Of a stretch of DNA of 52,959 nucleotides, positions 2,237 to 52,959 are shown in pieces. Source of the stretch: a virus (Duplodnaviria > Caudoviricetes); the IMG/VR virus record IMGVR_UViG_3300033433_000003, positions 1 to 52,959 of that record, one strand, 5' to 3'. Made by a program: the position numbers and the translations under genes. The notes under the pieces are model-generated. The model worked only from the letters and a program-made list of their open reading frames with translations, searched no databases and had not been told where the DNA came from. How positions within the stretch are numbered: position 1 is the stretch's first letter; each line of letters opens with the position of its first letter.

Positions 2237-2497
2237 CTATATCAATTCATGACGTTCACATCCGTCTTGTCCTGAGAAATGTATATTGTGATCACAAGAA
2301 CACCAACCTTCATTCTGATCATAATCATCAAGTAGATGGAAAGATGTGCAATTGCAACACCATCTTTTGACACTTATTGATTTAACATATCTTGCGCAAT
2401 ATGAATCATAATGAACAAAATGGCTGTTTTTATCGCACCAGGAAAATGCTGATCTGGAATTAACTATTATGAATGCTTCACAATCTTTGCATCTCAT
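2237..2497 (-). CDS. small Cys-rich protein, two CxxC...C...C units
   Basis: Translation; coupled to the upstream stop. Confidence 0.6.
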   Translation of the reverse strand: MRCKDCEAFIIVNSRSAFSWCDKNSHFVHYDSYCARYVKSISVKRWCCNCTSFHLLDDYDQNEGWCSCDHNIHFSGQDGCERHELI

Positions 2498-3378
2498 TAT
2501 TCGCCATCCTCAAAATGCTCATGATCAGGATCTGATGCGTCAAATATATCATTGATCAGATCAAAAAGATATGGCCTGAATATTTTTGGATCTTCTGGAA
2601 TGGGATTTGCTTTGAGCTTAGATATCAATGCATTGAAATGCAGAACGTCAACTCCAATGAGCTGATCTTTCAACACCTCAACACTATTTAAATCAAGATT
2701 TGAAACATCATAAATCATCTTCAAGTATTCAGATGCTCCGCAGGTCCATCCTCTCTTTATGAACTTGCGTGTTCTTATGATCGAGCTGAGTGGATACCTT
2801 GAGCCGATATATTTCAGCTCTTTGGTCAATATGCATTGCATTGCAAATGTATCAAGAACCAAACCTTTGCTTGTCATATAAGACTTTACATGAGCAAAGT
2901 CAAAATTTTTATGGATTTCTTCTGGTGATCCTGTGAAGCGGGTGATGAACTGAATGCCGTCTGACAAGGTGACTGCATTATCAGTTATTGCGATTGGCAG
3001 GTAAGTTCCTTTGTCAGGTTTCTTTTTGGCCCTCAAGATTCCGTTGCTTCTGATGAATGTACGAACTCTTGTAGGATCTTTTTCATCAATTTTCACATAC
3101 ACATTGTCTTTATCAGTCTCTGAAAGCTTCGAGACATAGTATTCAGCAAGTTCTTTGCAGAATTCGGCATTGGAGAAGTAAACATCAAAGTCATTCGGTT
3201 CTTCCTGAAGCAACATCGATACTATGCTTCCGCCTGTAACAATATAATACTTTTCGATGCCATCAGCAAGTTTTGCATAATGATTCAAAGATTTGTCAGT
3301 CTTTGAGTAATCGATGATGGTCTTTTTCCAAGCATTGATTTTTGCTTTGATCGTTAGTTCGATGGTTTTCTTTTTCAT
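2497..3378 (-). CDS. nucleotidyltransferase-superfamily protein (pol beta / CCA-head-like)
   Basis: TGGSIVSMLLQEEPNDFDVYF (GG...DxD), later NFDFAH and R..KFIKRGW. Confidence 0.7.
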   Translation of the reverse strand: MKKKTIELTIKAKINAWKKTIIDYSKTDKSLNHYAKLADGIEKYYIVTGGSIVSMLLQEEPNDFDVYFSNAEFCKELAEYYVSKLSETDKDNVYVKIDEKDPTRVRTFIRSNGILRAKKKPDKGTYLPIAITDNAVTLSDGIQFITRFTGSPEEIHKNFDFAHVKSYMTSKGLVLDTFAMQCILTKELKYIGSRYPLSSIIRTRKFIKRGWTCGASEYLKMIYDVSNLDLNSVEVLKDQLIGVDVLHFNALISKLKANPIPEDPKIFRPYLFDLINDIFDASDPDHEHFEDGE

Positions 3379-4420: not shown

Positions 4421-5359
4421 TCATAAGTTTTTCTTTGACAAATCATAGTTATTTTTCCATATAAGCTGTTTGATAACTTTTATGTCCTTCCATATATCAT
4501 CAAGCATTACATTCTTCCATATTGCATACCTGCCAAGCGAAAATACACCATAATCACGAGTAAGCAAATATATGCAGTGTTTCCTGAATTCATCATCTAT
4601 CGGAGCAAACTTTCCATTCTCTTGAATAGTTTCATCTAAAAATTCAACTTGGTCTGAATACTTTATTCCAAATGCAGCAATTGCTTCGCTTGTTGCAGCT
4701 CCAACAGATGATGATATGTCATTATTTATCATTTCAATAATAAGCATATTTCCAGTCAAAGATGCTCGGTAAATAGAATTGTTGTAATCAGGAAAATAAA
4801 CTGTTTGATAAACATCACATCTTTTAACCCTGTATCGTATGATTCTTATTTTTTCACTTTTGAACATTTTGAATTCATCAGCCTTCATATGCTGCAAACA
4901 ACTTATCATCTTATGCATTGGCATAGTGCTGATCAATTTATCTTCATTCAATCCTGATCGCTCTTGTTCAAAATCAAATTCATAATGAATCCTGTCATTA
5001 TATCTTTCAAGCAAAATTTCATGGAAGTTTTCAGGAGCGATGAACCGAGTGCAAGTCTCCATATTCCATATAGATCGATCGTCTATCGTATTGGCGACTT
5101 TTGTTGAATACTGATTGCAAAGCTTTATGTTTGGCTCTTTAAATCCACCTTTGCTCCATATGCCCTTATGTACGGTTACTTTCTTGAATGGAATGCCGAG
5201 GTGATCACCTATATCTGAAGTTCTGAATCTTAGCAGGGCGCGATGCGGCTTGATATCGCCTTTACTTGACTTTTCGTAAATAATTGAATCAGGGAAATGA
5301 GATGATGCAAGAAGTCCTGAAAGTCCAGCGCCGATGATCGAAATTGATTGGTTTTGCAT
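4421..5359 (-). CDS. FAD/NAD-binding flavoprotein (UDP-galactopyranose mutase / amine oxidase-like fold)
   Basis: N-terminal IIGAGLSGLLA dinucleotide motif, ISTMP, C-terminal SLGRYAIWK. Confidence 0.75.
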   Translation of the reverse strand: MQNQSISIIGAGLSGLLASSHFPDSIIYEKSSKGDIKPHRALLRFRTSDIGDHLGIPFKKVTVHKGIWSKGGFKEPNIKLCNQYSTKVANTIDDRSIWNMETCTRFIAPENFHEILLERYNDRIHYEFDFEQERSGLNEDKLISTMPMHKMISCLQHMKADEFKMFKSEKIRIIRYRVKRCDVYQTVYFPDYNNSIYRASLTGNMLIIEMINNDISSSVGAATSEAIAAFGIKYSDQVEFLDETIQENGKFAPIDDEFRKHCIYLLTRDYGVFSLGRYAIWKNVMLDDIWKDIKVIKQLIWKNNYDLSKKNL

Positions 5360-5387
5360 GATACTTATTATTTATTTATGTTTATAC

Positions 5388-7902: not shown

Positions 7903-7924
7903 TCACCTACTAACTGAATTCATT

Positions 7925-17109: not shown

Positions 17110-17550
17110 ATGCGAAATAACATGATAGGAGGCTGTATGCGGGAAATTACGTCGTCGTGCTTAGATATTACAATTTTAAAGGAATATTTCAAATATTATC
17201 CTGAAACAGGATTTATAGTATGGAGGAAAAAGTCATGTATCAAAAGCAGGATTGGAGCCGGAAACTTTGATTTAATGAGAGTTGAACGTGGACAGTTAAG
17301 TGAAGAAGATTCTGAAGTTGTTGCAGGAAATAGATATGATGGAGGCAGAAAGATTGTCTTCAGAGGTAAGCAAATGAAGTCGAGAAGAGTTGCTTGGATG
17401 TTGTATTATGGAGAGATTCCGAATGGGGATGTAATCAACATAGATGGAGATGTTTATAATGATAGGATCGAAAACCTTGGCGTGCTTACGAGAAGTGAAC
17501 GAATGAGAAGATTGATTAACAGAACGAGAGCTGAAGGAGGAATAGAATGA
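17110..17550 (+). CDS. degenerate HNH homing-endonuclease-like protein
   Basis: FKYYPETG.IVW N-terminus, RVAWMLYYGEIP, VINIDGDVYNDRIENL (catalytic His absent). Confidence 0.7.
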   Translation: MRNNMIGGCMREITSSCLDITILKEYFKYYPETGFIVWRKKSCIKSRIGAGNFDLMRVERGQLSEEDSEVVAGNRYDGGRKIVFRGKQMKSRRVAWMLYYGEIPNGDVINIDGDVYNDRIENLGVLTRSERMRRLINRTRAEGGIE

Positions 17551-17765
17551 TCTGGAAGTTTGTCAGATTAGTATTCATATTTTTTCAGCTGTATATTTTC
17601 ATATCGATTATAAGATGCACAGGAATGTAATAAATTTGGAAAATAAATTTTTGCGCCTATGGGGAAATTTCGTATATTTAATTAATGTGAATTGCTATTA
17701 ATTTGTGAAGATCAGGCTTAGTCGAATGGTTCGGCAAAAGCCAAAAACTTAAATGGAGATTGACC

Positions 17766-18419
17766 ATGTCCGAAAAAGTTGTAGACGAAATCCAGGCTGG
17801 CCAGATTCAGGATGCTGTTGAAGCTCTGACTGAAGCAGGTGAAGCCATCGAAGAAGCCAAGGAAGCTCTGGAAGGCGCTGAAAATCCTGAATGCTCTGAA
17901 AAGTCTGAAAAGGCCAAAAAGGAAAAGGAGTATGTTTCTCCTGAAGAAAAGAAAATCCATCAGTCCGAAGGAACCAAAAAGAGTTGGGAAGACCCTGGTG
18001 TTGCTGCTGCCAGAAAGATTCGCCGTGGCTGTATCGTTACCCCGCCTGATGGTGTCGGCACTGTACTTCGCTTTGCCAGTGTCTGGGCCGCATTCCAGTA
18101 TTACGCTTCCGAAAACCAGATCAATCTCGGCAATGTTTCCAAGGCGATATCTTTCAGGAGAGAACTCAGGATGGAGGATGGCAAGGAGATGGCCCTGGAG
18201 GTCGAAGGTGTCGGCTCATTCATGTTCAAGGATTGTCCGATTCCTGTGATCGAAAAGCCCAAAAAGGAAAAGGCAGTGAAGCCGAAAGAAGGTGAAGAGG
18301 GATTTGTCCCTGCCGAAAAGAAGGCCAAAAAGCCGAAGAAAGCCAAACAGACGCCTGAAAAACCCAATGAAATTCCGGTTGATGCTGAGCCTATGAATGT
18401 CGAAGCCAAATGGGATTGA
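17766..18419 (+). CDS. Lys/Glu-rich putative DNA-binding protein, paralog of 19957
   Basis: KSWEDPGVAAARKIRRG core; GGAG SD; own promoter and terminator. Confidence 0.8.
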   Translation: MSEKVVDEIQAGQIQDAVEALTEAGEAIEEAKEALEGAENPECSEKSEKAKKEKEYVSPEEKKIHQSEGTKKSWEDPGVAAARKIRRGCIVTPPDGVGTVLRFASVWAAFQYYASENQINLGNVSKAISFRRELRMEDGKEMALEVEGVGSFMFKDCPIPVIEKPKKEKAVKPKEGEEGFVPAEKKAKKPKKAKQTPEKPNEIPVDAEPMNVEAKWD

Positions 18420-19570: not shown

Positions 19571-19730
19571 ATGTAAATGATTATGAATGATGTAAATGGC
19601 AATGAAAGTGAAATCTGATGGTAATGGAATGAAATGGCAATGAAAATGGAATGGAATGAAAATGGAATGAAAATGGAATGAAAATGGAATGAAAATGGAA
19701 TGAAAATGTTATGGGCAAGGGATGATGTAG
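19571..19730 (+). repeat. ATGGAATGAAA 11-bp satellite (5 perfect copies at 19651-19705 with degenerate flanks)
   Basis: Direct inspection. Confidence 0.95.
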
Positions 19731-19731
19731 G

Positions 19732-19802
19732 TATACCTATACCCGGTAGGGGTATATACCTATACCCGGCAGGGGTATATACTGATACCCGGTAGGGGTA
19801 TA
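19732..19802. repeat. 3 x 23-bp tandem repeat TATACCTATACCCGGTAGGGGTA, each containing the inverted repeat TATACCC-N5-GGGTATA
   Basis: Direct inspection; 1-2 mismatches in copies 2 and 3. Confidence 0.95.
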
Positions 19803-19956
19803 AGCAAGGGCAAGGGACTTTGAAATAAAAAGTTATTATATCGAAAGTTTTTTACGAAAAAGTTAGGTTAATTCGATTTTTCGCCGTACTATTAAGGAGA
19901 AGGAACGGCAAGGTAGCCCGCCCTTCCCTATAACTAATAACTAAAAGGAGCGCAAA

Positions 19957-20427
19957 ATGCAGAACGCAAACGCAAACGTCGAAGCAGTCGAGATCGCAAG
20001 GCACTATAAAGCAAATCCCGAAGAGGAAATAAAAACGGCGATCGGGATCGGAGTAGCGAAGAGCTACGATAACCCTGCTATCGCTGCCGCCCGCAAGGTA
20101 AGGAGAGGCGTATACGTAACCGTAGGAGATGCCGCGCCCGCCTATTACGAAAGCACGTATAAAGCCTTTACCGGTCTTAAAATTCCCGCTTCCGTAGGGC
20201 AAATTATTGCTTTTCGCGGTCGCTTACGCAAGCCGGAAAACGCTGCCGGTCTGCCTTTTAAGGTCGGAGAGGTAACGTATTTCTTCTCCGATACGGAACG
20301 CATTCCTGCGAAGCCGAAAGCCGAAACGGTCGCACCGGAAGCCGCACCGGAAGCCGCACCGGAACCGGAAGCCGCACCGGAACCGGAAGCCGCACCGAAA
20401 AAGGGAAGGCGATCCGCGAAGAAATAA
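19957..20427 (+). CDS. putative DNA-binding early protein with APE(PE)A repeat tail; lies in the TGD/HCA-free island
   Basis: AAGGAG SD, KSYDNPAIAAARKVRRG core shared with 17766, own terminator. Confidence 0.85.
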   Translation: MQNANANVEAVEIARHYKANPEEEIKTAIGIGVAKSYDNPAIAAARKVRRGVYVTVGDAAPAYYESTYKAFTGLKIPASVGQIIAFRGRLRKPENAAGLPFKVGEVTYFFSDTERIPAKPKAETVAPEAAPEAAPEPEAAPEPEAAPKKGRRSAKK

Positions 20428-20447
20428 ACGACGACCGACCCGACGAC

Positions 20448-20479
20448 GAACCCCGCCCGCGAAGCGGGGTTTTTCGTTT
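20448..20479 (+). terminator. rho-independent terminator
   Basis: AACCCCGC-CCGCGAA-GCGGGGTT plus T-run. Confidence 0.8.
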
Positions 20480-20751
20480 CCCGTTTCGGCGGTTTGGAGC
20501 GCCCTCCCCATACCGATATACGGCGAACGGTGGCAGGTAAGTTAAACTAATTTAACTTTTTATAACAGGCTCATCGATCAACGAACCACATTCCCCGGAA
20601 ACAGTCCATTTTTCAACTTTCTCAGATCACCGAATCACGATTTTTATTTTTTCTGTACAAACTTTTGTTTCAAAAAGGCAATTTGCTTTTTATTAAAAAA
20701 ATTCGTATATTGCTTAATGGACATATTCAACAACAATAGTATCCATTGACC

Positions 20752-43373: not shown

Positions 43374-45257
43374 TTAAGCTGTCAAAAGGTTATTCGACAT
43401 ATTGAATAAACCTCTTTCCCTCCCTTTATCGACTATCGTGAACGACACATCCTGCTTGTTAATAAGGCATTCGATTATGTATTCATCAATAGTTCCTATT
43501 CCAGCATAGTTGTAGTATGTAACATCTTTCGTCTGACCAATTCGCATCGTGCGATCTTCGCTCTGAATTCTGTCTCTATACGAAAAGCTATTGCTGAAAT
43601 AATGAACACTCGAAGCAGCAATGAGAGTGAGACCTGTTCCGCCAGCTTTTTGGTTTCCTATGAAAACATCAAGTCCACTTTTCTCCCAGACCTCAACTTC
43701 TCCCTGCAAATGAATAAGCTCATCTTTCTTTTCAAACTGATCAATAATCTCAAGACGATCACTTCTTTTTGTCTTGCCATAATACCTTGCAGATGTGATT
43801 CCAAGCTCTTTCAGTGCATTGTGAATATCATCTATCTCGGTTGTGTACCTTGCCCATATAATCACCTTCTCACGCCGTTCGATGCACGCCGAAACCCTTT
43901 CCAAGAGAAGGTTTAACTTTGGATTTTCACCTGGTATTCTTACAGCAAACTCACTGCCGGGGTGCAAATAGTAACCTGATGTTATCTGTGAAAGTTTTGT
44001 TGCAGCAACAAGCCTTGTGAACGTTGCATCTTCACCTTCATATTCTATCCTTAACTGTTCCTCGGCCTTTTTGTATACAGAAGCCTGCTCAACAGTAAGG
44101 TAAAAAAATAATGTTTCATAAATCTTCTCAGGCAGATCAAGACAATCTTTCCTGAGAACGCGATATGAATAAGGTTCAATAAGTTTTGCAAGTTTGTCAA
44201 GGTTTTTGTATTGTGGCTTTTTGTCTTTGTCTCTTTCTACAATAATAGGAATCCTGTTTGGATTCAATGCAGATTTGAACTTTTTTAAGTGAACATTCAA
44301 TATCTGCTTTATAGATGTTATGAGTTCGATGCATCTCAGCTTTCCAGCATTTTGACTTTCAGGATTAAACATTCCTTCAAGTTCATCAAGCTTCTCTATA
44401 AACACTTCATAAAGGTCAGAGTCCCAAGCATCAAGAGCTGAAATACATTTGCTTAACAAAGGCATTCTTGCATTGGCAATGATGATTTTATAAAGTTCAT
44501 CATTGAACCTTTTTATATCAGATATTTGAACTGGATCAAGCTTTACCTTTTTGCCGACAATACTTTTAATAAGAGCATTGTTTGCAGGCAATGTTTTTGC
44601 ATATTCAGTTTTGAAAGCTCTGAATGATGATGTTTCAAGTATAGCCGGATTCAAGAACCTAAACTGGCTGAATGCGTCAAACGGAGAATTGTTGATTGGC
44701 GTACCAGTGATTATCTTTCTGTATTTGACCTTATCATGCTTTCTGAGTTTCTCCATGAATTTAGCTCTCATTCCAGTCGGATCTTTCATTGCATCACTTT
44801 CATCAGCGGCAATAAAAACTTTATTTCTCGTTGAAAGGAATTCAAGAATTTCATCAGTTCCTCTATCATATTGAAGGGCATCCCAGTTGAATGCATATAT
44901 CTTCAATAATCCATATTCATCGTTCTTAATAAATTCTTCACGCTCTTTTTGAATCCATTTTGCGTTGCCTGAATTCCAAGCGATAGATTTGTAGTTTACC
45001 CATTCAGGCATATGCTGAGCAAACTGCCCAACAATAGGTCGTGTCCAGTTCTCATGCACGCCATTTGGTGCGATTATCAAAACTGAATCAATATATCCTG
45101 ATTCCCATAGTTGGGCTATCTCATTTATGATCATCCAGCTTTTGCCTGTTCCCTGCTCACATAACAAAGCAAAGTATTCCCTCCCGGCATAAGTGGACAG
45201 GTAGTAAGCTTGATGCTTTAGCGGTTGAGTTTTGAATTTAGAAGGATGGAGGTTCAT
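43374..45257 (-). CDS. SNF2-like DExx helicase
   Basis: EQGTGKS, ADESD, TGTPINNSP, GGTGLTL, QSEDRTMRIGQ. Confidence 0.92.
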   Translation of the reverse strand: MNLHPSKFKTQPLKHQAYYLSTYAGREYFALLCEQGTGKSWMIINEIAQLWESGYIDSVLIIAPNGVHENWTRPIVGQFAQHMPEWVNYKSIAWNSGNAKWIQKEREEFIKNDEYGLLKIYAFNWDALQYDRGTDEILEFLSTRNKVFIAADESDAMKDPTGMRAKFMEKLRKHDKVKYRKIITGTPINNSPFDAFSQFRFLNPAILETSSFRAFKTEYAKTLPANNALIKSIVGKKVKLDPVQISDIKRFNDELYKIIIANARMPLLSKCISALDAWDSDLYEVFIEKLDELEGMFNPESQNAGKLRCIELITSIKQILNVHLKKFKSALNPNRIPIIVERDKDKKPQYKNLDKLAKLIEPYSYRVLRKDCLDLPEKIYETLFFYLTVEQASVYKKAEEQLRIEYEGEDATFTRLVAATKLSQITSGYYLHPGSEFAVRIPGENPKLNLLLERVSACIERREKVIIWARYTTEIDDIHNALKELGITSARYYGKTKRSDRLEIIDQFEKKDELIHLQGEVEVWEKSGLDVFIGNQKAGGTGLTLIAASSVHYFSNSFSYRDRIQSEDRTMRIGQTKDVTYYNYAGIGTIDEYIIECLINKQDVSFTIVDKGRERGLFNMSNNLLTA

Positions 45258-45700
45258 TATTTCCAGATTAAATATGTTCGTAAATCTTTTATTAGCATTT
45301 TTGGAACGTCACCATTTGGTTGAAGCGCAAACCAATAAGTTGATATTGAAATCAATTCATCAACCGTCATTTCATTTACGAAGTCAGCATATATACAACC
45401 ATCGATCAACATCCATCGTTTGTCGGTGCAAATCAATAACCATCCTACACCTCCAGCATTCTTTTGGTCAAGAAACCAATTTTTCTGCTCTGTTGATACT
45501 TTATGATTTGAACCAAACAGAGGTGTCGTACTACGCTTTGGCTCTTTCGGGGATTTGATTTCTATCCAACACTCACAGCCTTCCAAGCATTGGTTTACAT
45601 CTGGCATTCCGATGATCATCAAATTTTCTATTCTTTGAATTCTATCTTTGAATACCTTGATTGCCTTTCGATACTTCAAGTATGCTGACTTCTCACTCAT
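45257..45700 (-). CDS. VRR-NUC / Holliday-junction-resolvase-like nuclease
   Basis: GMPDV...WIEIK, Q..W. Confidence 0.8.
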   Translation of the reverse strand: MSEKSAYLKYRKAIKVFKDRIQRIENLMIIGMPDVNQCLEGCECWIEIKSPKEPKRSTTPLFGSNHKVSTEQKNWFLDQKNAGGVGWLLICTDKRWMLIDGCIYADFVNEMTVDELISISTYWFALQPNGDVPKMLIKDLRTYLIWK

Positions 45701-45733: not shown

Positions 45734-45928
45734 CTATACCATCCTATTTTTGTAACTTCCACACTTGAAGTCTGTTCCTTTGCCTATTGACCATCGAAAG
45801 GTTTTTCTGGTTTTATCATCAACATGTCTAATCAAAACACGATTGAAAATTATGGAGGTTATTGTATTCAATATTCCAAGCCAGCTTGTACCTCTGAAAT
45901 AAAATCTGTTTTTAAAATACTTACTCAT
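45734..45928 (-). CDS. hypothetical protein
   Basis: Small ORF overlapping the dnaE stop. Confidence 0.5.
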   Translation of the reverse strand: MSKYFKNRFYFRGTSWLGILNTITSIIFNRVLIRHVDDKTRKTFRWSIGKGTDFKCGSYKNRMV

Positions 45929-48737
45929 TTTCACCATCCTTGGTTTTTGTTTTAACCTCTCCTTCAGGTTTATTTAGCCATTTCCATTTGGTTACAAAAG
46001 CATATCTTATTCCGTTCCAGAACTTTGCTCTAACAAGCAAATGGGCGCCAACAGGAACTGTATCCATCAATGTTCTTCCGCATCGCTCAAAGTCAAACCT
46101 GCCGATCCGTGCGCCTATGAGTTCTGTATCATCTCTGAACTTCAAGTCAATGAATGCGAATGGAGCGCCTTCAATTTTACCACCTCTCCTTTTAACAAAC
46201 ATCTCCTCATTGATGTCACGAGGGTTTTTGTGTACAAGTTCTGCGATAAAAACTCTTTCACATCCATGTCTCATTCCTTCTTCAAATTCACAGATATCAG
46301 ATACTTTGTCACAGTCAACATTGTACTTTTTAGGGTTTGCATAAATGTGACCATAGTTGTTGTGGAAAGGAAAGATGTCATCAAATTTTGATTTCTTCGC
46401 AAGGATTTTTTCTCTGTCTTTTGCAGACAACTTGCCTTCATTCCTGAGCGCAACAAACTTGGTTGCATTGGAATCTCCAATTCCTATCAATGCCGTGAAT
46501 CCGCCAAGAAGCATTCCATCTTTTACGCACCAAGTCTCTTCTGACTTTTCAATGTCGAACGGCGTAAACTGAACTCCTTCTCGACCCAACTCCCTGAGAA
46601 GTTCCAATGCTGAATCATCATCTTTGGCGTTCCTCAAGGTTGACGCTGCAAATTCAAGAAGGTGATACTTCTTCAAATATGCGCACCAATACGATATTAC
46701 AGCATAGCTGTACGTATGAGCTTTATTCATCTGCCACGAACCCATCGCATTGATAAGCTTCCAAGTCTTCATGGCTTCAGCTTCAGGAATACCGAGTGTT
46801 GCGGCTCCAGCAATAAAACGTGGAATGAACTTCTCGAAAAATTCAGTTCCCATTCGTTTTGAAATACCTTTCCTGATAAATGTCGTTTCTTCCCAGTTGA
46901 ACTTTCCGATGTTCCTTACAATAGCAAATGTCTGCTCCTGGTAAAGTGGAAGGCCGCAAGTTTCCCTCATACACTCTTCAACCAAAGGATGTAGCGCCGT
47001 ATATGGTTTGCCGTTCTTTCTGTCTACATAGTCATACACGATGCCGGCGCCATACGGTCCTGGCCTTGCCAAAGCTGTTACGTTATCAACTTCAGCAATG
47101 CTCTTGAATTCAACAAGCTTTGCCAAAGACCTCATTGCGTTCCCCTCGAACTGAAACAGTCCACAAAGTCTTCCAGAGCCAAACATAGATAGGACTTCTG
47201 GATCGTCAACAGGAAGATTATACCAGTCAATATTGATTCCTGTATCTTCAATGACACTCAACGTTCGCAGACCAAGAACATCAATTTTCAACAAGTTCAA
47301 AGACTCCGCTGCGTGCTTATCGCAGTGAGCAATTCCTTCAGCATCAACTGTTGCGTAGTTCGTAATCATATCATTGCAGATCAGAAGTCCAGCGGCATGA
47401 ACTCCAACGTGAGATGCATGACCTTCAAGCTTCGTTGCAATGATTGCATCAGGATACATTTTGATGAATTCCCTTCCAGGATCAGTTCCTGTAAGAGTGT
47501 CCTCCAGACAGTTAGTGGCACGAGCATCTGCAATTGACCTTTCAATCATCGCAGTCTTGACGTTATAAATCATTGCCGAAGGAATGTCGAGGGCCTTGCA
47601 TGTCGTTATGAGCGCACTTTTCGGCTTGTATACTGAGATAGTACCGATGTGAGCGACATTAGATGTTCCATATTTTTTCTCCATATATTCGAACACAATA
47701 TGCCTCTTCTTGTCAGGAAAATCAAGGTCGATGTCTGGGAGATCTTCGCGCGAGACATCAATGAATCGCTCAAAATACAGTCCTGGTGGGATCGGGTCGA
47801 TTTCTGTAATTCTTGCAAGATAGCAAACCAAAGAGCCTGCTGAGCTTCCGCGACTTGGCCCAACAAGCATATGCTGTTTTGCGTACCTAACCATATCTGA
47901 GACAATGATGAAATAGCTCGTGAAAGATTTTGACGCAATAAGATCAAGTTCGTATTTGAGCCTATCTTCATATACTTCATTCCAGATTCCCTCCATTTTA
48001 CGATATTTGATTCCTTCCCTACATAAAGCCTCCAAATCACCTTCTTCATGGATCATCGGAGCTTTACGAAGATTGAACATAGGGCATTGCAAAGCAATCA
48101 TTTCAGCTTGCTCTTGAAATTTGAGTTCTTCAAGTATATGCTGTTTCGTCATTTTCCTGCCAGCCTTCGATATGATTGCAAAAGGCTCTTCATCTTCTTC
48201 ATAGCAGAATGCATTGTCCGACGTTTCAACGATCCTGAGATTGTATTTGCTTGCCAGTGCTTTTTTCTTGGCGTTAAGAATCAAACTGGAAGGGTTAAGG
48301 TCAACAACAGCTTCAACCTCTTTCAAGAACTCTCCATCCAGTATATCTCCAGCAAATATCACGATATTGTTTGTCTTGGATATTTCCACGACATCATGAG
48401 TATACAACCTTGGAAGCTTCTGCTGGTACTGATTCGTTATTGTATTGTGATAGGCATTTGAATTGAAATTATACAATTCTTTCAGACCTTCTTGGTTCTT
48501 TGCGAGAAACCACATTTTTGTCTGCTCATTCTCGTCACTTACGATCAACTCAACGCCAAGAATTGGTTGAATCCCAGCAGCAACGCACGCCTTGTGCCAT
48601 GGTATGTGACCCCACGTTGAAGAGTCTACAATTCCTGCTGCTGTACATCCGATGTCTTTGAGTCTTTGAATAACTCTATCAATCTTGGCGTATGTCTGAC
48701 CAAAATGATATTCCGTGTGAAGCTTTAAGTGAATCAA
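45921..48737 (-). CDS. dnaE: DNA polymerase III alpha subunit (C-family)
   Basis: PHP N-terminus HTEY, GPSRGSSAGSLVCY, PDIDLDF, GVHAAG, KIDVLGL, NKAH..SY. Confidence 0.95.
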   Translation of the reverse strand: MIHLKLHTEYHFGQTYAKIDRVIQRLKDIGCTAAGIVDSSTWGHIPWHKACVAAGIQPILGVELIVSDENEQTKMWFLAKNQEGLKELYNFNSNAYHNTITNQYQQKLPRLYTHDVVEISKTNNIVIFAGDILDGEFLKEVEAVVDLNPSSLILNAKKKALASKYNLRIVETSDNAFCYEEDEEPFAIISKAGRKMTKQHILEELKFQEQAEMIALQCPMFNLRKAPMIHEEGDLEALCREGIKYRKMEGIWNEVYEDRLKYELDLIASKSFTSYFIIVSDMVRYAKQHMLVGPSRGSSAGSLVCYLARITEIDPIPPGLYFERFIDVSREDLPDIDLDFPDKKRHIVFEYMEKKYGTSNVAHIGTISVYKPKSALITTCKALDIPSAMIYNVKTAMIERSIADARATNCLEDTLTGTDPGREFIKMYPDAIIATKLEGHASHVGVHAAGLLICNDMITNYATVDAEGIAHCDKHAAESLNLLKIDVLGLRTLSVIEDTGINIDWYNLPVDDPEVLSMFGSGRLCGLFQFEGNAMRSLAKLVEFKSIAEVDNVTALARPGPYGAGIVYDYVDRKNGKPYTALHPLVEECMRETCGLPLYQEQTFAIVRNIGKFNWEETTFIRKGISKRMGTEFFEKFIPRFIAGAATLGIPEAEAMKTWKLINAMGSWQMNKAHTYSYAVISYWCAYLKKYHLLEFAASTLRNAKDDDSALELLRELGREGVQFTPFDIEKSEETWCVKDGMLLGGFTALIGIGDSNATKFVALRNEGKLSAKDREKILAKKSKFDDIFPFHNNYGHIYANPKKYNVDCDKVSDICEFEEGMRHGCERVFIAELVHKNPRDINEEMFVKRRGGKIEGAPFAFIDLKFRDDTELIGARIGRFDFERCGRTLMDTVPVGAHLLVRAKFWNGIRYAFVTKWKWLNKPEGEVKTKTKDGENE

Positions 48738-49285
48738 AGTAATGACTCCAAAAGTTGAGATTCAAGAAGAACTTCAGTCAAATCTTTTGCATCTGATAGA
48801 GCGCGGTGAGTTTGATTCAACGGCTTCTTCATGTAATGTTCATAAAGCACGGTGAGTTTTGGTCTGAACCCGAATATGTGATAATACTCCTGAACAGTAC
48901 AAATGATACACTTTGGCCACGGAAAGCTTTTGTTGGCTGCCGTACTGATTCGATTCAACTCCATACCAAGCATTCCTACATCAAATGGAGCATTATGAGC
49001 GATGAGATAATCAACGCCATACATTGCATCGATGATCGTCGGAAGGTACTGAGGGAAAGTTGGTTGACCTTTGAGCATCTCATTTGTGATTCCTCCAGCA
49101 TTTTTTGTTTGTTCTGCTGTTAGCATGAACTCTGGATTAATCAGCTGGCTGATCTCTTTTACAGGCCTAAGTCCATCAATTATGACAAGACCAAAATCTA
49201 TGATTCTTGGCTGCTGACTTAACGGCACTCTCTTGGGCTTTGGAAAACCTGTTGTTTCGGTATCGAATACGGCAAAACGGGGCAT
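48734..49285 (-). CDS. DEDDh 3'-5' exonuclease (epsilon/DnaQ-like)
   Basis: DTETTG, HNAPFD, HRALSDA. Confidence 0.92.
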   Translation of the reverse strand: MPRFAVFDTETTGFPKPKRVPLSQQPRIIDFGLVIIDGLRPVKEISQLINPEFMLTAEQTKNAGGITNEMLKGQPTFPQYLPTIIDAMYGVDYLIAHNAPFDVGMLGMELNRISTAANKSFPWPKCIICTVQEYYHIFGFRPKLTVLYEHYMKKPLNQTHRALSDAKDLTEVLLESQLLESLL

Positions 49286-49382: not shown

Positions 49383-49808
49383 TCAGTCAGGAGTTATGCT
49401 TTCCAACATAGCAGAGTAGTTCATAAGGTCATGCGCTGAATCCTTGTGTCCTCCTTCATCCAAAGAGGCGCAATATCGCATGAGCTTGGTGACGATCTGT
49501 ACGATTACTCCAAGTTTGGTGGCAGAAGTGATTGCCATATCATTGGTATCAATATGTATGCCTTGCGGGAAAAGTGCCATCATCACAGGTCCGAACTGCT
49601 TGTATACATCACCGTACTTATCGCCATACTGCATTCGACGACCCATGAGCGTTTCTATTCCACCTTTGAGAGTTTTTTCAATCTCCGAAAGCTCCATTTG
49701 CCCGATAGTGCTTTGAATGTATCCTGGATCTGTAAAATATCCCATTCCACCTTTCGGAATATCAGTTGAATGAGAATTTGCTGGAGGATCAAATGCTTTG
49801 CTTAACAT
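49383..49808 (-). CDS. DUF1599/DUF6378-like all-alpha nucleotide-modification-associated protein (start uncertain)
   Basis: R..QYGD...KLMRY...HKDSAHDLMNYSAML. Confidence 0.6.
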   Translation of the reverse strand: MLSKAFDPPANSHSTDIPKGGMGYFTDPGYIQSTIGQMELSEIEKTLKGGIETLMGRRMQYGDKYGDVYKQFGPVMMALFPQGIHIDTNDMAITSATKLGVIVQIVTKLMRYCASLDEGGHKDSAHDLMNYSAMLESITPD

Positions 49809-49861
49809 AATTCTTTTGTCTTTTAGAGTTTTGATTATCTCTTCTTCTGTCGGTATATCTA

Positions 49862-50368
49862 TTATGAATACCCTTTTACGAGCTGAGTCATCAGCGCCAG
49901 GTTTCGTTCGACGATGCCGATAATTACGCCCATATGGACTTGGAGTTGCCATGCTACCTCTCTGTTTTTTTCATAGTAAGGATTATTGACCAGCGTGCGA
50001 ATTGTTTCCTCTGTCCAGAAACTTTTGTGGTCAAGGTCTTGATATGCAATCATTCCGAGCCTATGTGGCACGACGATGTTCAGGGTTCCGCCGACAACCA
50101 AAACTCTTTCGCATTCCTTCAGAATTCTGATTGCATCTTCTCCGGTGAGATGTTCAAAGAAATGGAATGCCCAAATTGTGTCCATCGATTCACTCGGGTA
50201 TGGTATGTTTGACGTTACAGCGTCCCAATCTGGCCAATCGATGTTTTCGCAGTTTGGAAGCTTGTTTGCTCCACAACCGAGATTCAGCTGGTATTTACCT
50301 GGCTCAATAAGCTCAGGAATATCACGTTTCATTCCAAGCTTAAAAAATTCGTTGATGTTAAATGACAT
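49862..50368 (-). CDS. class I SAM-dependent methyltransferase (type 11-like)
   Basis: LNLGCG, HFFEHL, RVL..GG.L.IVVP, DLDHK. Confidence 0.85.
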   Translation of the reverse strand: MSFNINEFFKLGMKRDIPELIEPGKYQLNLGCGANKLPNCENIDWPDWDAVTSNIPYPSESMDTIWAFHFFEHLTGEDAIRILKECERVLVVGGTLNIVVPHRLGMIAYQDLDHKSFWTEETIRTLVNNPYYEKNREVAWQLQVHMGVIIGIVERNLALMTQLVKGYS

Positions 50369-50804
50369 TTTTGTTTATTCTTTTCATTGTTTGCTGAATG
50401 CCCTGCTTTTTGTACATCTCAAGAACGATGGCCCTATCATCGTAAGCCATATCTATTACTGCACCGGGATTGGCCTCCAAGAACATTTTTAGGAAATGCA
50501 TTTTCAGAATATGGCTTGGCATCTTGTTGCCATTCGGCCTCATATATACCAAATCTGTATTTATGTTATTCTTTGCAAGCCAAAGTTTTGTTGCAAGAAT
50601 ATACTTGATTGGTCTGCCAGTGAATATCACTACGTTTTCGGGGAAAGGAATATCTGGATACCAATTGAAATCATCTATGCCACACCCGCTGTGATAAGCC
50701 TCAAGCTTTTTGTTCCTGCTAAAACTATTTGTATCACCAAGCCAATGCTGCCTCCATCCATCATTTGAAATGCAGTTGTCGAGATCAAGTATAGTGTAAT
50801 TCAT
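50358..50804 (-). CDS. HAD-family phosphatase (PNKP 3'-phosphatase-like)
   Basis: DLDNC, FTGRP, MRP...K, YDDR. Confidence 0.85.
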   Translation of the reverse strand: MNYTILDLDNCISNDGWRQHWLGDTNSFSRNKKLEAYHSGCGIDDFNWYPDIPFPENVVIFTGRPIKYILATKLWLAKNNINTDLVYMRPNGNKMPSHILKMHFLKMFLEANPGAVIDMAYDDRAIVLEMYKKQGIQQTMKRINKNVI

Positions 50805-50837
50805 AACTTCTTCATTCTGATTGGGGATAATGAACTC

Positions 50838-51140
50838 TCAATGTACATAAGTCTTCAAGTTGAATTGATAAATCAAATAGTCAGGATTTCTTTTTTTGAT
50901 AGTTCCTATCTTGGTAAGCGTCTTTCCTTTGTAAACGCAACAAGGAAGTCTATCGCCAAAAAGTTGATCTGTTACGTATTTTATAGATTCAACTATCATC
51001 CTTTCGTGTCCATCAAAAATTATGTCTCCGACCTTTATGGTGTTATTTGAAAAGGCATACTCTTTTGCAATCAAATTCCTTTCCAAATCAAACTTTGCTG
51101 TTAAAGCTTTTTTCTTCGCAATGTACTCGATTGTTGTCAT
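50838..51140 (-). CDS. hypothetical protein
   Basis: Coupled to the thyX stop. Confidence 0.65.
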   Translation of the reverse strand: MTTIEYIAKKKALTAKFDLERNLIAKEYAFSNNTIKVGDIIFDGHERMIVESIKYVTDQLFGDRLPCCVYKGKTLTKIGTIKKRNPDYLIYQFNLKTYVH

Positions 51141-51859
51141 CAGAACTCCTTTCTCATTTTGTCGACGATTTTCAAAAGCTCACCTCTTTCCTTGAGATCG
51201 TGAAATTTTTGTTTTGCGTACTCTTCGATCTGATTGAAGTAGTCACGCTTTTTTGAGAACAGGAACTTTTCGGCCCAAGGGTGTTCAGCAAGTACAGCTT
51301 CTGTCAATTTTGATACAACCTGCTGATATTCATCCTGAGTCCTTCCACCGCTCCTGGACTTCACGATATCAGAAATGGTTCTCAGATTGAAGTTGCAAAA
51401 AATATTCGTGCTGATATTTGTTGGAAGAATACCTCTGGCATCTTCCGGTTGCTGACCGCAATCTTCAACAAGCCTTTTGTAAAGGTGCTGTGTGATTCTT
51501 TTATGCCACCTTATAAGTCTCATTGCCTCTTCAGACTTCATGTTTCCTTCGGTAAAGATGTAATCGAACTCAGACTGGTTCGTCACTCTCATTGTCTGTT
51601 GGGCATACGAGGCTGTTCGAGTGCGAACCTGCTGGTGAGTATAGGCGCGTGATACACCTTCGATCAGCAAATTGTAATTCACAAACTCCCACGCACTTGG
51701 CACAGTATTGGCTATATAATCCAGATTGGCCTCAAGAGTTGACTCATGCATTTCCATTATCGCATTCCATGTGAAAGGCGTAAGTTCAAGTCGAGTTGAC
51801 TTTGCAAAAATCAGCGTTTGCGCGGCGTTCGGCGTACAGTTGATAAGTGTTACTTGCAT
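51140..51859 (-). CDS. thyX: flavin-dependent thymidylate synthase-like protein (divergent)
   Basis: IEGVSRAYTHQQVRTRTASYAQQTMR, EDARGILP, NLRT, R...Q.E. Confidence 0.85.
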   Translation of the reverse strand: MQVTLINCTPNAAQTLIFAKSTRLELTPFTWNAIMEMHESTLEANLDYIANTVPSAWEFVNYNLLIEGVSRAYTHQQVRTRTASYAQQTMRVTNQSEFDYIFTEGNMKSEEAMRLIRWHKRITQHLYKRLVEDCGQQPEDARGILPTNISTNIFCNFNLRTISDIVKSRSGGRTQDEYQQVVSKLTEAVLAEHPWAEKFLFSKKRDYFNQIEEYAKQKFHDLKERGELLKIVDKMRKEF

Positions 51860-52832: not shown

Positions 52833-52959
52833 GAGTGTAAAGACCAGGATTGAAGGAGAGAGTCGAAAAGGAGACTGTGTTGACAGTTCTGGTGACGTTG
52901 AGGCCAAAGCCTTTGCCGAATCCGAGCTTGATTCCGTAGCCGATACCATAGTCGATGTC

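What the first reader, a model, noticed from the sequence alone, without database searches (positions are those of the whole stretch)
49383..51859. Candidate novel nucleotide-hypermodification pathway built around a divergent ThyX
Established: the ThyX signature is RHRx7S(x)R with an active-site Ser. Seen: here it is RTRTASYAQQTMR (His to Thr, Ser to Thr). The gene is co-oriented with a HAD phosphatase, a small-molecule-type SAM methyltransferase, a DUF1599/DUF6378-like helical protein, a proofreading exonuclease and the phage's own DnaE. Elsewhere are a flavoprotein (4421-5359), a nucleotidyltransferase (2497-3378) and a MazG-like pyrophosphatase (11272-11733). I recognise no dUMP/dCMP hydroxymethylase, 5-HMUDK, aGPT-PplT, glycosyltransferase, PurZ or 7-deazaguanine gene. 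Inference: a non-canonical pyrimidine is made and incorporated, then elaborated in a sequence-specific way, which would fit the TGD pattern. From memory the gene set resembles the PB1-like replication module; this was not verified.
Basis: partly seen in the sequence, partly recalled or inferred. Interest (0 to 1): 0.78.

Follow-up and report, generated by a model that had tools for sequence, protein, structure and literature searches.

The report
PB1-type ThyX–flavoprotein cassette, likely thymidine hypermodification
This phage carries the same nucleotide and replication gene cassette as the PB1-like Pseudomonas phages, whose DNA was recently shown to carry sugar-decorated thymines made by unknown genes, so its odd thymidylate-synthase-like enzyme and neighbouring flavoprotein are testable candidates for that pathway.

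Summary
The genes are real and co-oriented. They are a Pfam-level ThyX (RTRTASYAQQTMR), a HAD phosphatase, a small-molecule-type SAM methyltransferase, a helical protein, a proofreading exonuclease and DnaE, in the same order as PB1 gp61-gp55. The His-to-Thr and Ser-to-Thr changes are not special: 88 of the 150 best representatives have RTR, and both positions flip repeatedly on the tree. Three other things are special. The whole subfamily lacks the lid Tyr and the stacking His of canonical ThyX. It falls below the NCBIfam equivalog cut-off. It sits just downstream of a UDP-galactopyranose-mutase-like flavoprotein (77 of 80 and 72 of 76 related IMG/VR loci). A 2025 preprint reports that Pbunaviruses F8 and 14-1, which carry this cassette, replace about a quarter of their thymidines with sugar-type derivatives in a TG motif, and names Pbunavirus as an example of phages lacking known modification genes. 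The window has a 674-nt island with no TGD word on either strand. No ThyA, Tet/JBP, 5-HMUDK or ADDT family is detectable. I put about 0.55 on the cassette taking part in thymidine hypermodification, about 0.35-0.4 on the ThyX itself making a non-dTMP product, and about 0.35 on ordinary dTMP supply. The DUF1599 and nucleotidyltransferase labels were not verified.

The parts
51140..51859 (-). ThyX-family flavoenzyme, 239 aa. RxR motif is R79-T80-R81, Ser position is T89, R91 is kept, lid position is V92.
   Evidence: Pfam Thy1 96.6 bits. TIGR02170 74.1 bits, below the 87.9 cut-off. Aligned to T. maritima ThyX chains. Aligned to PB1, Ralstonia phage, Bacillus phage and Clostridium phage ThyX.
50838..51140 (-). 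100-aa ORF of unknown function, in the position of PB1 gp60.
   Evidence: No Pfam, PHROG or NCBIfam match. Position compared with PB1.
50358..50804 (-). HAD-superfamily phosphatase, 148 aa. It corresponds to the N-terminal half of PB1 gp59. Both motif-I aspartates are present (ILDLDNC), and YDDR lies near the C-terminus.
   Evidence: HAD_PNKP E 1.8e-5. phrog_415 and phrog_4889. BLASTP to PB1 gp59 residues 11-146, E 7e-7. Pnkp1 4xrp E 0.0035. Sequence read.
49862..50368 (-). Small class-I SAM-dependent methyltransferase of the small-molecule type, 168 aa. It is an optional accessory of the cassette.
   Evidence: Methyltransf_11/25/12. phrog_6636 E 1.6e-52. Nearest solved relative is a D-glucose O-methyltransferase, 6uv6, E 3.8e-5. 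Found in 21 of 156 related loci, always between the flavoprotein gene and DnaE. Present in 14-1 and absent from F8.
49383..49808 (-). Helical protein, 141 aa by the downstream start (189 aa if started at 49952, which overlaps the methyltransferase gene). It corresponds to the C-terminal domain of PB1 gp59.
   Evidence: phrog_4889 C-terminal part, E 5.8e-7. BLASTP to PB1 gp59 residues 244-331, E 2e-6. The database holds the 141-aa form. No Pfam match. AlphaFold2 mean pLDDT 57.6, helices only, no specific fold match.
48734..49285 (-). DnaQ-like 3'-5' proofreading exonuclease.
   Evidence: RNase_T E 1.2e-20. phrog_192.
45921..48737 (-). DnaE-type DNA polymerase III alpha subunit, 938 aa.
   Evidence: PHP, DNA_pol3_alpha and finger domains. 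62% identity to the Ralstonia phage PY059YO380 homologue and 41% to 14-1 and F8.
43374..45700 (-). SNF2-family helicase (43374-45257) and the small phrog_2165 protein (45257-45700). These are the counterparts of PB1 gp55 and gp56.
4421..5359 (-). UGM-like FAD/NAD(P)-binding flavoprotein, 312 aa (phrog_4828). It is the conserved upstream partner of the ThyX gene. In this genome it lies about 5.5 kb upstream on the same strand, across the terminal repeat.
   Evidence: Invariant IxGAGxxG...E motif. AlphaFold2 pLDDT 90.2. UGM chains are the top hits: Foldseek E 1.7e-11; Z 22.4, rmsd 3.3 over 300 residues, against 18.8 for the next class. ThyX follows it in 77 of 80 loci. Present upstream of ThyX in 72 of 76 loci. 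Found in 362 phage records.
11272..11733 (+). MazG-like nucleotide pyrophosphatase, 153 aa. Substrate unknown.
   Evidence: phrog_5658 and phrog_3301 'pyrophosphatase', E about 5e-28. No Pfam family above threshold.
2497..3378 (-). 293-aa protein (phrog_4400, function unknown).
   Evidence: A homologue lies between the flavoprotein gene and ThyX in L085.
19822..20495 (.). Island with no TGA, TGG or TGT on either strand. It covers a strong ribosome-binding site, ORF 19957-20427 (156 aa) and a terminator. It is indirect evidence that TGD is a word that matters at the DNA level in this phage.
   Evidence: Longest gap 674 nt, against a mean of 67 and a maximum of 105 in 200 first-order Markov genomes. 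0 of 20000 simulations from the island's own dinucleotide content gave zero words. Synonymous recoding expects 32 words (range 19-45) and 0 are seen.

Best explanation
The finding is the core of a conserved phage cassette. On one strand it runs: UGM-like flavoprotein, ThyX-family enzyme, HAD phosphatase, helical protein (the last two are fused as gp59 in PB1), sometimes a small SAM methyltransferase, proofreading exonuclease, DnaE.

Shown here:
- the cassette and its conservation;
- its presence in Pbunavirus;
- retention of the arginines and glutamine that hold FAD and dUMP in ThyX;
- loss, across the whole subfamily, of the lid Tyr and the stacking His.

Shown by others: Pbunavirus virion DNA carries sugar-type thymidine derivatives in a TG motif, and Pbunavirus is named as an example of phages lacking known modification genes.

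Inferred: the cassette supplies the nucleotide-level arm of such a thymidine hypermodification in this phage too.
- My preferred version (about 0.35-0.4) starts with the ThyX-family enzyme passing a one-carbon unit from methylene-tetrahydrofolate through flavin N5 to C5 of dUMP. Without the Tyr/His pair it reduces the exocyclic methylene poorly. It therefore releases a 5-hydroxymethyl-type (O-substituted) dUMP instead of dTMP.
- In that version the HAD phosphatase, the helical protein and the MazG-like enzyme clear thymidine nucleotides. The phage's own DnaE incorporates the analogue. Unidentified DNA-level enzymes then elaborate it at TGD and convert the rest to thymine, as in the classical hmU-derived pathways.
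- A weaker version (about 0.2) has the ThyX making ordinary dTMP while the UGM-like flavoprotein, with or without the methyltransferase, does the sugar chemistry.
For: - Synteny with PB1 gp61-gp55, and pairwise matches of both halves of gp59.
- A ThyX relative lies just downstream of the flavoprotein gene in 77 of 80 IMG/VR loci. The median gap is 339 nt. The 3 misses have at most 2.4 kb of downstream sequence.
- In reverse, the flavoprotein lies upstream of ThyX in 72 of 76 loci, and in 63 of 64 loci with at least 2.5 kb of upstream sequence.
- In the phage collection both genes occur in 292 Pseudomonas, 27 Escherichia, 9 Serratia and 6 Xanthomonas records. The Bacillus, Gordonia, Clostridium and Sulfolobus ThyX hits are not among the named host groups of the flavoprotein.
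- The lid position is V 68, T 5, A 3 and Y 0 in 76 readable cassette ThyX sequences. Bacillus and Clostridium phage ThyX outside the cassette keep RHR..S.RY and the H-x-S-x-x-E-H stretch.
- The window ThyX scores 74.1 bits against TIGR02170, below the equivalog cut-off of 87.9.
- Literature, passages read. Tyr91 and Ser88 are called strictly conserved, Y91 mutation slows flavin oxidation 1000-fold, and H53 stacks on folate and FADH- (PMC11940539). Acid-quenched FDTS yields hydroxymethyl-dUMP by water addition, and the Ser-to-Ala mutant is active (PMC4913046).
- Literature, passages read. hmU phages use a dUMP hydroxymethylase, a dTTPase, a dTMPase and their own polymerase, and virion DNA of the hypermodifying phages holds no 5-hmdU (PMC8989533).
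- Literature, passages read. In F8 and 14-1 about a quarter of thymidines are replaced by nucleosides of 362 and 390 u, in a TG motif (PMC12191111).
- The flavoprotein's nearest fold is UDP-galactopyranose mutase, a sugar-nucleotide enzyme.
- The window has a TGD-free island.
- No ThyA, Tet_JBP, HMUDK_hel or ADDT family is found in the window.
Against: - No measurement exists for this uncultured phage. The only public run found holds it as contigs.
- All the arginines that bind dUMP and FAD are kept. Ordinary dTMP synthesis therefore stays fully possible, and compensating residues could replace Tyr and His.
- His versus Thr and Ser versus Thr versus Ala flip often. RHR-type members share the cassette.
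- Three quarters of Pbunavirus thymidines are canonical. TG specificity must be set on DNA, and no DNA-level enzyme is identified in the cassette.
- The preprint text never mentions ThyX or thymidylate (0 occurrences).
- F8, 14-1 and the Ralstonia relative show no TG-word island. Loci around the cassette in relatives show none either.
- The F8 motif includes TGC (FspI and ApaLI are blocked), whereas the window's island tolerates TGC. The motifs, if both are modification motifs, differ.
- The methyltransferase is absent from most relatives (135 of 156 loci), from F8 and from the Ralstonia phage.
Confidence: 0.55

Rival explanations
1. This is ordinary nucleotide supply plus replication. The ThyX is a genuine flavin-dependent dTMP synthase of a divergent phage subfamily. 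The neighbouring flavoprotein is an auxiliary, for example a dedicated reductase that replaces the lost NADPH/His53 function, or is unrelated. HAD plus the helical protein is a PNKP-like end-healing or nucleotide phosphatase. The methyltransferase is an accessory gene. Any DNA modification in these phages is made by other genes.
For: - Pfam Thy1 match over the full domain.
- Q76, R79, R81, R91, R142 and R169 are conserved against canonical ThyX.
- The His and Ser positions are labile within one cassette-bearing clade.
- Thymidylate synthases are common in lytic phages, and databases annotate the PB1 gene as such.
- Most thymidines in F8 and 14-1 are canonical.
- Eukaryotic UGMs bind NAD(P)H (entries 5vwt and 5vwu), so a reductase role is conceivable.
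Against: - The subfamily lacks Tyr91 and His53 equivalents in 76 of 76 readable sequences. Y91 mutation costs 1000-fold in flavin oxidation.
- The window ThyX falls below the equivalog cut-off.
- The near-obligate pairing with a UGM-like protein is not known for cellular ThyX (this last statement is from recall).
- The only cassette-bearing phages whose DNA was analysed are thymidine-hypermodified, and the preprint names them as an example of phages lacking known modification genes.
Confidence: 0.35
2. The TGD-free island and the cassette are unrelated. The island reflects avoidance of a host or phage nuclease, or a DNA-binding requirement at a highly expressed gene. This phage's DNA is unmodified.
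For: - The island lies about 25 kb from the cassette.
- Relatives with the cassette show no comparable TG-word island.
- Other word-free stretches in relatives are compositional. The AT-free stretch in 14-1 and F8 is a lysine-alanine-glutamate repeat on an A-poor strand.
Against: - The avoidance is symmetric on both strands and exempts only TGC/GCA.
- It survives controls for the island's own dinucleotide content and for codon choice.
- The motif resembles the TG motif reported for the cassette-bearing Pbunaviruses.
Confidence: 0.1

Closest known systems
Pbunavirus (PB1, F8, 14-1) replication and nucleotide module, and their TG-motif thymidine hypermodification (Yee et al. 2025 preprint, PMC12191111)
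   Same: Same gene order: ThyX, small ORF, HAD plus helical domain, exonuclease, DnaE, small protein, SNF2 helicase. The UGM-like flavoprotein (ORF65) lies upstream. A MazG-like enzyme and a Pam3_Gp34-like protein lie elsewhere in the genome. The ThyX is RTR-type without the lid Tyr. The DNA word of interest starts with TG in both.
   Different: Protein identity is only 35-42%. The window genome is 53 kb at about 42% GC, against 66 kb. HAD and the helical protein are separate genes with the methyltransferase between them. About 5.5 kb of extra genes lie between the flavoprotein gene and ThyX. The window's island spares TGC, whereas F8 blocks enzymes with TGC sites. No chemistry is known for the window phage.
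Canonical flavin-dependent thymidylate synthase ThyX (T. maritima, M. tuberculosis, H. pylori; PF02511, TIGR02170)
   Same: Same fold family over the whole domain. It keeps the Q-x-x-R-x-R, R91, R142, N158/R160 and R169 equivalents that bind FAD and dUMP (PMC6514825 section 3.1).
   Different: His of RHR becomes Thr. Ser88 becomes Thr. Tyr91 becomes Val. The His53 stretch H-x-S-x-x-E-H becomes V-P-S-A-W-E-F. His178 becomes Arg. The score is below the equivalog cut-off. It is always paired with a UGM-like flavoprotein.
Classical thymidine hypermodification and hmU-phage pathways (SPO1, PhiW-14, SP10, M6, ViI; Lee et al., PMC8989533)
   Same: The logic the cassette could follow: a thymidylate-synthase-like enzyme makes a C5-functionalised dUMP; phosphatase and pyrophosphatase remove thymidine nucleotides; the phage polymerase incorporates the analogue; sequence-dependent post-replicative elaboration follows and leaves thymine elsewhere.
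   Different: Those pathways use a ThyA-family dUMP hydroxymethylase, 5-HMUDK and aGPT-Pplase or amino-acid:DNA transferases. None is detectable here. The candidate enzyme here is of the unrelated ThyX fold.
UDP-galactopyranose mutase
   Same: The 312-aa flavoprotein aligns over 300 residues at Z 22.4 and has the Rossmann dinucleotide motif.
   Different: It is 50-200 residues shorter than UGMs, with 12-17% identity and no Pfam match. Substrate and chemistry are unknown. Protoporphyrinogen and amine oxidases follow at Z 16-19.

Membership tests
ThyX / flavin-dependent thymidylate synthase | Thy1 domain (PF02511) above the gathering score | tested here: met
   96.6 bits against 24.8, covering profile positions 1-191 of 191.
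ThyX / flavin-dependent thymidylate synthase | NCBIfam TIGR02170 equivalog cut-off | tested here: not met
   74.1 bits against 87.9.
ThyX / flavin-dependent thymidylate synthase | RHRx7S signature | tested here: not met
   The window has R-T-R x7 T. 88 of the 150 best representatives also have RTR.
ThyX / flavin-dependent thymidylate synthase | Arginines and glutamine that bind FAD and dUMP (T. maritima Q75, R78, R80, R90, R147, R165, R174) | tested here: met
   Q76, R79, R81, R91, R142, R160 and R169 align with them. Residue roles are from PMC6514825 and, for T. maritima numbering, partly from recall.
ThyX / flavin-dependent thymidylate synthase | Lid Tyr (Y91) and stacking His (H53) | tested here: not met
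   V92, and V-P-S-A-W-E-F in place of H-x-S-x-x-E-H. 0 Tyr in 76 cassette homologues.
ThyX / flavin-dependent thymidylate synthase | Makes dTMP from dUMP | not testable with these tools
   Needs an enzyme assay or thyA complementation.
Classical thymidine hypermodification pathway | ThyA-family dUMP hydroxymethylase | tested here: not met
   PF00303: no six-frame match at E<=1. The control rang in 10 of 14 genomes.
Classical thymidine hypermodification pathway | 5-HMUDK and amino-acid:DNA transferase / aGPT-Pplase | tested here: not met
   PF18723 HMUDK_hel and PF18724 ADDT: no match at E<=1. Other aGPT-Pplase families were not searched.
Classical thymidine hypermodification pathway | Tet/JBP thymine hydroxylase as the alternative entry | tested here: not met
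   PF12851: no match at E<=1.
Classical thymidine hypermodification pathway | dTMPase and dTTPase that clear thymidine nucleotides | tested here: inconclusive
   A HAD phosphatase and a MazG-like pyrophosphatase are present. Their substrates are unknown.
PB1-like (Pbunavirus-type) replication module | Gene content and order ThyX, gp60, gp59, exonuclease, DnaE, gp56, SNF2 helicase | tested here: met
   gp59 is split here, with a methyltransferase gene inserted.
DUF1599 / DUF6378 (helical protein 49383-49808) | Match to PF07659 or PF19905 | tested here: not met
   No hmmscan hit at E<=10. No six-frame hit at E<=10. The Atlas shows neighbour clusters in which only 10-14% of members carry these families, with scores of 0.91 and 0.89, so remote kinship stays open.
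UDP-galactopyranose mutase (flavoprotein 4421-5359) | UGM fold with a Rossmann FAD site | tested here: met
   Z 22.4, rmsd 3.3, 300 residues aligned. GxGxxG is invariant.
UDP-galactopyranose mutase (flavoprotein 4421-5359) | Sequence-family membership and mutase activity | tested here: not met
   No Pfam or NCBIfam family. No PDB sequence hit with the profile. Activity is not testable here.
Polynucleotide kinase-phosphatase (database label of PB1 gp59) | P-loop kinase domain together with the HAD phosphatase | tested here: not met
   Only the HAD_PNKP phosphatase part is found, in both the window protein and PB1 gp59. No kinase family was reported.

The most novel reading that the evidence does not exclude
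The ThyX-family enzyme and the UGM-like flavoprotein form a two-flavoenzyme system that puts a sugar-derived carbon chain on C5 of a deoxyuridine nucleotide by covalent flavin-N5 iminium chemistry. UGM forms an N5-C1 sugar adduct, and ThyX transfers an N5-bound carbon to C5 of dUMP. The product would be a C-linked or O-linked glycityl-thymidine.

By my own arithmetic, the 362 u nucleoside of F8 equals deoxyuridine bearing a 1-deoxypentit-1-yl group at C5. It equally equals 5-hydroxymethyl-dU in ether link with a tetritol. Where present, the optional methyltransferase would further decorate the adduct. 14-1 has the methyltransferase gene and a nucleoside 28 u heavier than F8, which lacks the gene.
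Probability: 0.08. Interest if true: 0.95.

Novelty: new variant of a known kind. Interest (0 to 1): 0.7.

Why it matters
PB1-like phages are among the most used therapeutic phages against Pseudomonas aeruginosa. Their DNA was reported in 2025 to be hypermodified, and the preprint names them as an example of phages lacking the genes previously tied to genome modification.

This work gives a short, conserved and testable candidate set: a ThyX without the lid Tyr and stacking His, the UGM-like flavoprotein beside it, HAD plus the helical protein, and an optional methyltransferase. The set is spread over at least 362 sequenced phages of Pseudomonas, Escherichia, Serratia, Rhizobium, Xanthomonas and other hosts, and over hundreds of metagenomic contigs.

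If the ThyX-fold enzyme makes a hydroxymethyl-type nucleotide, it would be, as far as I recall and as far as my searches showed, the first flavin-dependent pyrimidine hydroxymethylase. It would be an independent invention of the entry step of thymidine hypermodification. If it makes plain dTMP, the obligate flavoprotein partner still needs an explanation.

Tried and rejected
- His-to-Thr and Ser-to-Thr as a functional signature. Rejected: this is the commonest state, and both positions are labile.
- Near-identical DNA in the phage collection. None found.
- Helical protein.
  - No Pfam match and no DUF1599 or DUF6378 six-frame match.
  - Only 3 homologues beyond the window's own record, and 9 PB1-type fused forms. 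No related IMG/VR locus by pattern search.
  - AlphaFold2 model at pLDDT 57.6.
  - Foldseek found nothing at E<=0.001; faint MazG- and HisE-like rows have probability of 0.57 or less.
  - VIA wide search gave only generic helical bundles at Z of 7.7 or less. The profile against PDB gave nothing.
  - Its fold and function stay open.
- Fused ThyX homologues. 10 of the long representatives were scanned as a clue to function (I picked them by length). They showed only Thy1, inteins in two, and one Pam3_gp59-like extension.
- Nucleotidyltransferase label. Not supported.
- Complex prediction of ThyX with the flavoprotein. No verdict: score 0.00, controls not run. This is no evidence either way.
- Word-free islands in relatives.
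  - The strongest ones in 14-1 and F8 (AT-free, about 570 nt) are a low-complexity repeat in ORF66.
  - No TG-word island appears in 14-1, F8 or Ralstonia phage PY059YO380, nor in 118 cassette loci of at least 10 kb.
- Pam3_Gp34-like protein in the Atlas. Only its own family came back.
- Public reads for a direct look at modification.
- Literature.
  - Searches found one paper on Pbunavirus DNA modification (PMC12191111).
  - No paper in the held library holds 'Pbunavirus', 'hypermodified' and 'thymidine' besides it.
  - 'DUF1599' occurs in 3 papers, none of them read.
  - Supplements were not seen. Extended figures of PMC12191111 (structures, MS/MS) are known to me only by their legends.

Full report
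**What the window is.** The window is a complete 52,959-bp virus record with direct terminal repeats. I measured an exact 127-bp repeat at the ends. When the ends are joined, a minus-strand ORF with a signal-peptide-like start runs across the junction. GC content is about 42%. Megablast finds no close relative in the phage collection. The only public run that holds the phage is a peat metagenome kept as contigs.

**The observation.** The minus strand from 52119 down to 43374 encodes, in this order:
- a ThyX-family protein (51140-51859, 239 aa; Pfam Thy1 96.6 bits);
- a 100-aa ORF;
- a HAD phosphatase (50358-50804);
- a small class-I SAM methyltransferase (49862-50368);
- a helical protein (49383-49808 or 49383-49952);
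- an RNase_T-type exonuclease;
- a 938-aa DnaE;
- a small phrog_2165 protein;
- an SNF2 helicase.

The motif reads VRTRTASYAQQTMRV. Against T. maritima ThyX chains it aligns as Q75/Q76, R78/R79, H79/T80, R80/R81, S88/T89, R90/R91 and Y91/V92. Further on, R147/R142, N163/N158, R165/R160, R174/R169 and H178/R173 align. T. maritima numbers are the chain numbers minus the 12-residue tag, which is my reading.

**The PB1 likeness is real.**
- PB1 has gp61 ThyX, gp60, gp59 (labelled 'polynucleotide kinase/phosphorylase'), gp58 exonuclease, gp57 DnaE, gp56 and gp55 helicase in the same order.
- The window's HAD protein matches gp59 residues 11-146. The helical protein matches gp59 residues 244-331. 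Here gp59 is split, with the methyltransferase gene between the halves.
- The nearest cultured relative by ThyX is Ralstonia phage PY059YO380 (57%), followed by Vibrio phage PVA7 (41%) and the PB1-likes (37%).
- The Ralstonia phage has the HAD and helical ORFs adjacent and no methyltransferase.

**The motif change is not diagnostic.**
- PB1 itself reads VRTRTGAYQQETSRA.
- Among the 150 best of 1,825 representatives, 88 have RTR, 27 RHR, 10 RSR, 7 RNR, 4 RQR and 2 RAR. Another 3 are odd and 9 are gapped at the motif. The Ser position is S, T or A.
- I built a FastTree tree of 117 near-full-length rows. I dropped 34 of 151 rows that filled fewer than 170 of the 189 core columns, and I did not remove the motif columns. 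On it the His position needs at least 22 changes (7 between His and non-His) and the Ser position at least 27.
- Published work says the serine is not a nucleophile and that the Ser-to-Ala enzyme is active (PMC4913046, passages).

**What does set the subfamily apart.**
- The window protein scores 74.1 bits against the NCBIfam equivalog model TIGR02170, whose cut-off is 87.9.
- The residue after the conserved Arg is the lid Tyr of canonical ThyX. It is V in 68, T in 5, A in 3 and Y in 0 of 76 readable cassette homologues.
- The stretch that carries the stacking His (H-x-S-x-x-E-H in Bacillus and Clostridium phage ThyX) reads V-P-S-A-W-E-F here, and similarly in PB1, the Ralstonia phage and an RHR-type member.
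- According to PMC11940539 (passages), Tyr91 and Ser88 are strictly conserved and Y91 mutation slows flavin oxidation 1000-fold. His53 stacks on folate and on reduced flavin and hydrogen-bonds to Tyr91.
- PMC6514825 (section 3.1) describes the Tyr as a lid that shields uracil C5 and flavin N5 from solvent.
- PMC4913046 reports that quenched reaction intermediates add water to give hydroxymethyl-dUMP.
- A natural ThyX without the lid and its partner His is thus a plausible candidate for releasing a hydroxymethyl-type product. This is inference and was not tested.

**The conserved partner.**
- It has 663 homologues at E<=1e-5 and an invariant IxGAGxxG...E motif.
- Its AlphaFold2 model has pLDDT 90.2.
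- UDP-galactopyranose mutases top Foldseek (E 1.7e-11). They also top the second-look aligner (Z 22.4, rmsd 3.3, 300 of 312 residues). Protoporphyrinogen oxidases follow at 18.8 and amine oxidases near 16.6.
- Of 383 relatives in IMG/VR, the best 80 loci were fetched. A ThyX relative follows on the same strand in 77 of 80, at a median gap of 339 nt. The three misses end at most 2.4 kb after the gene.
- In those 80 loci, HAD is found in 60, the helical protein in 51, the exonuclease in 53 and DnaE in 48. Many loci are short.
- Starting instead from RHR-type ThyX (76 new loci), the flavoprotein lies upstream in 72 of 76, and in 63 of 64 with at least 2.5 kb upstream. It accompanies His-type ThyX (35 of 38) and non-His-type ThyX (37 of 38) alike.
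- In the cultured-phage collection the flavoprotein occurs in 362 records. The host counts equal those of this ThyX subfamily for Pseudomonas (292), Escherichia (27), Serratia (9) and Xanthomonas (6).
- In the window the pair is separated by about 5.5 kb of extra minus-strand genes: phrog_3754, phrog_4400, DUF932, phrog_15098 and the junction ORF. L085 has a similar arrangement.

**The methyltransferase.**
- It is of the small-molecule type. Its nearest solved relative is a D-glucose O-methyltransferase (E 3.8e-5), and it has faint NCBIfam hits to an oligosaccharide methyltransferase.
- It is optional, occurring in 21 of 156 related loci. A few loci come from the same contig.
- When present it always lies on the cassette strand between the flavoprotein gene and DnaE, at varying positions.
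- In Pbunaviruses it sits about 40 kb away, among early genes, in 58 Pseudomonas phage records.
- 14-1 has it (51.5% identity). F8 has no match at E<=1e-3 and carries an unrelated 170-aa gene at that place.

**Outside evidence.** Yee et al. (bioRxiv 2025, PMC12191111; I read the abstract, passages, legends and extended tables, not figures or supplements) report the following.
- F8 and 14-1 digests contain new nucleosides of 362 u and 390 u that replace about a quarter of the thymidines.
- The modification sits in a TG motif.
- Pbunavirus is named as an example of phages that do not carry genes previously implicated in genome modification.

'ThyX' and 'thymidylate' occur nowhere in that text. 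My searches found no other paper on the matter. By my own arithmetic, 362 = 5-hydroxymethyl-dU (258) + tetritol (122) - water. It also equals dU with a 1-deoxypentityl group at C5. 390 is 28 u more.

Lee et al. (PMC8989533, passages) describe the classical scheme. A ThyA-family dUMP hydroxymethylase, a dTTPase, a dTMPase and the phage polymerase place 5-hmdU in DNA. It is then elaborated after replication, and virion DNA holds no residual 5-hmdU. The window has no ThyA, Tet_JBP, HMUDK_hel or ADDT match at E<=1. It does have a thymidylate-synthase-like enzyme of the other fold, a HAD phosphatase, a MazG-like pyrophosphatase and its own DnaE.

**The TGD word.**
- Window 19822-20495 contains no TGA, TGG or TGT on either strand. 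Genome-wide there are 6,011 such words, and the next longest gap is 147 nt, in the divergent intergenic region beside the flavoprotein gene.
- In 200 first-order Markov genomes the longest gap averaged 67 nt, with a maximum of 105.
- 0 of 20,000 sequences drawn from the island's own dinucleotide content had zero words (mean 18).
- Synonymous recoding of ORF 19957-20427 with the genome's codon usage gives 32 words (range 19-45), against 0 observed.
- In the island, TG occurs only as TGC and CA only as GCA.
- This shows strong DNA-level selection against TGD in one highly expressed-looking gene. It fits a TG-centred modification that has to be kept out of that gene, but it does not prove one.
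- Relatives do not show such an island. The F8 motif evidently includes TGC.

**Verdict.** The gene set, its PB1 kinship and the TGD signal are confirmed. The signature argument is not. I consider it somewhat more likely than not (0.55) that this cassette takes part in a thymidine hypermodification of the Pbunavirus kind. Within that, I put about 0.35-0.4 on the ThyX itself giving a non-dTMP product and about 0.2 on an ordinary ThyX with the UGM-like flavoprotein doing the sugar chemistry. Ordinary dTMP supply with no link to modification keeps about 0.35. The sequence-specific DNA-level step and the roles of the helical protein, the 293-aa protein and the methyltransferase remain open.

Noticed in passing
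window 19822-20495: A 674-nt island has no TGA, TGG or TGT on either strand. It covers a strong ribosome-binding site, ORF 19957-20427 (156 aa, PEAAPE repeats and a basic tail, no Trp or Cys, no Pfam match) and a terminator-like hairpin. The next longest gap (147 nt, 5387-5533) is the divergent intergenic region beside the flavoprotein gene.
   Followed up: yes
window 19730-19810: Three tandem-like copies of a roughly 25-nt element (GGTATA..CCCGGTAGGGGTATA) lie just upstream of the island. They could be an operator or promoter array.
   Followed up: no
window 1-127 and 52833-52959; ORF across the junction: There is an exact 127-bp terminal repeat. With the ends joined, a minus-strand ORF of about 255 aa with a signal-peptide-like N-terminus (MKKFFKISLMLFAAN...) crosses the junction. 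It lies between the DUF932 block and the ThyX block.
   Followed up: partly
L006 6707-7207 (14-1) versus L008 7033-7545 (F8): 14-1 carries the methyltransferase homologue (51.5% identity). F8 has an unrelated 170-aa gene at the same place. The reported modified nucleoside of 14-1 is 28 u heavier than that of F8, which equals either two methyl groups or CO.
   Followed up: partly
L001 8434-9211 (Ralstonia phage PY059YO380): The deposited annotation lists an opposite-strand ORF where the plus strand encodes the HAD phosphatase homologue. All 60 genes of the record are labelled hypothetical or nearly so.
   Followed up: no
P0089, P0092 (ThyX representatives): Two ThyX homologues carry inteins inserted just before the RHR-motif region. 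Another (P0041) has a Pam3_gp59-like N-terminal extension.
   Followed up: no
L007 about 17700-18270 (14-1 ORF66) and the same place in F8: An AT-free stretch of about 570 nt is a lysine-alanine-glutamate low-complexity repeat on an A-poor strand. It is a compositional artefact and not a word-avoidance island.
   Followed up: yes
window 9038-11272, 17110-17550, 951-1979, 7790-8785: Other genes found: a PrimPol plus DUF5906/VapE-like primase-helicase, an HNH_3 endonuclease, a DUF932 protein, and a Pam3_Gp34-like protein shared with Pbunavirus ORF51.
   Followed up: partly
PMC12191111 Extended Data Table 3: The enzyme listed as DraI has the site CACNNN/GTG, which contains TG, yet it is reported to cut F8 DNA. 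The F8 motif may therefore be narrower than TG.
   Followed up: no
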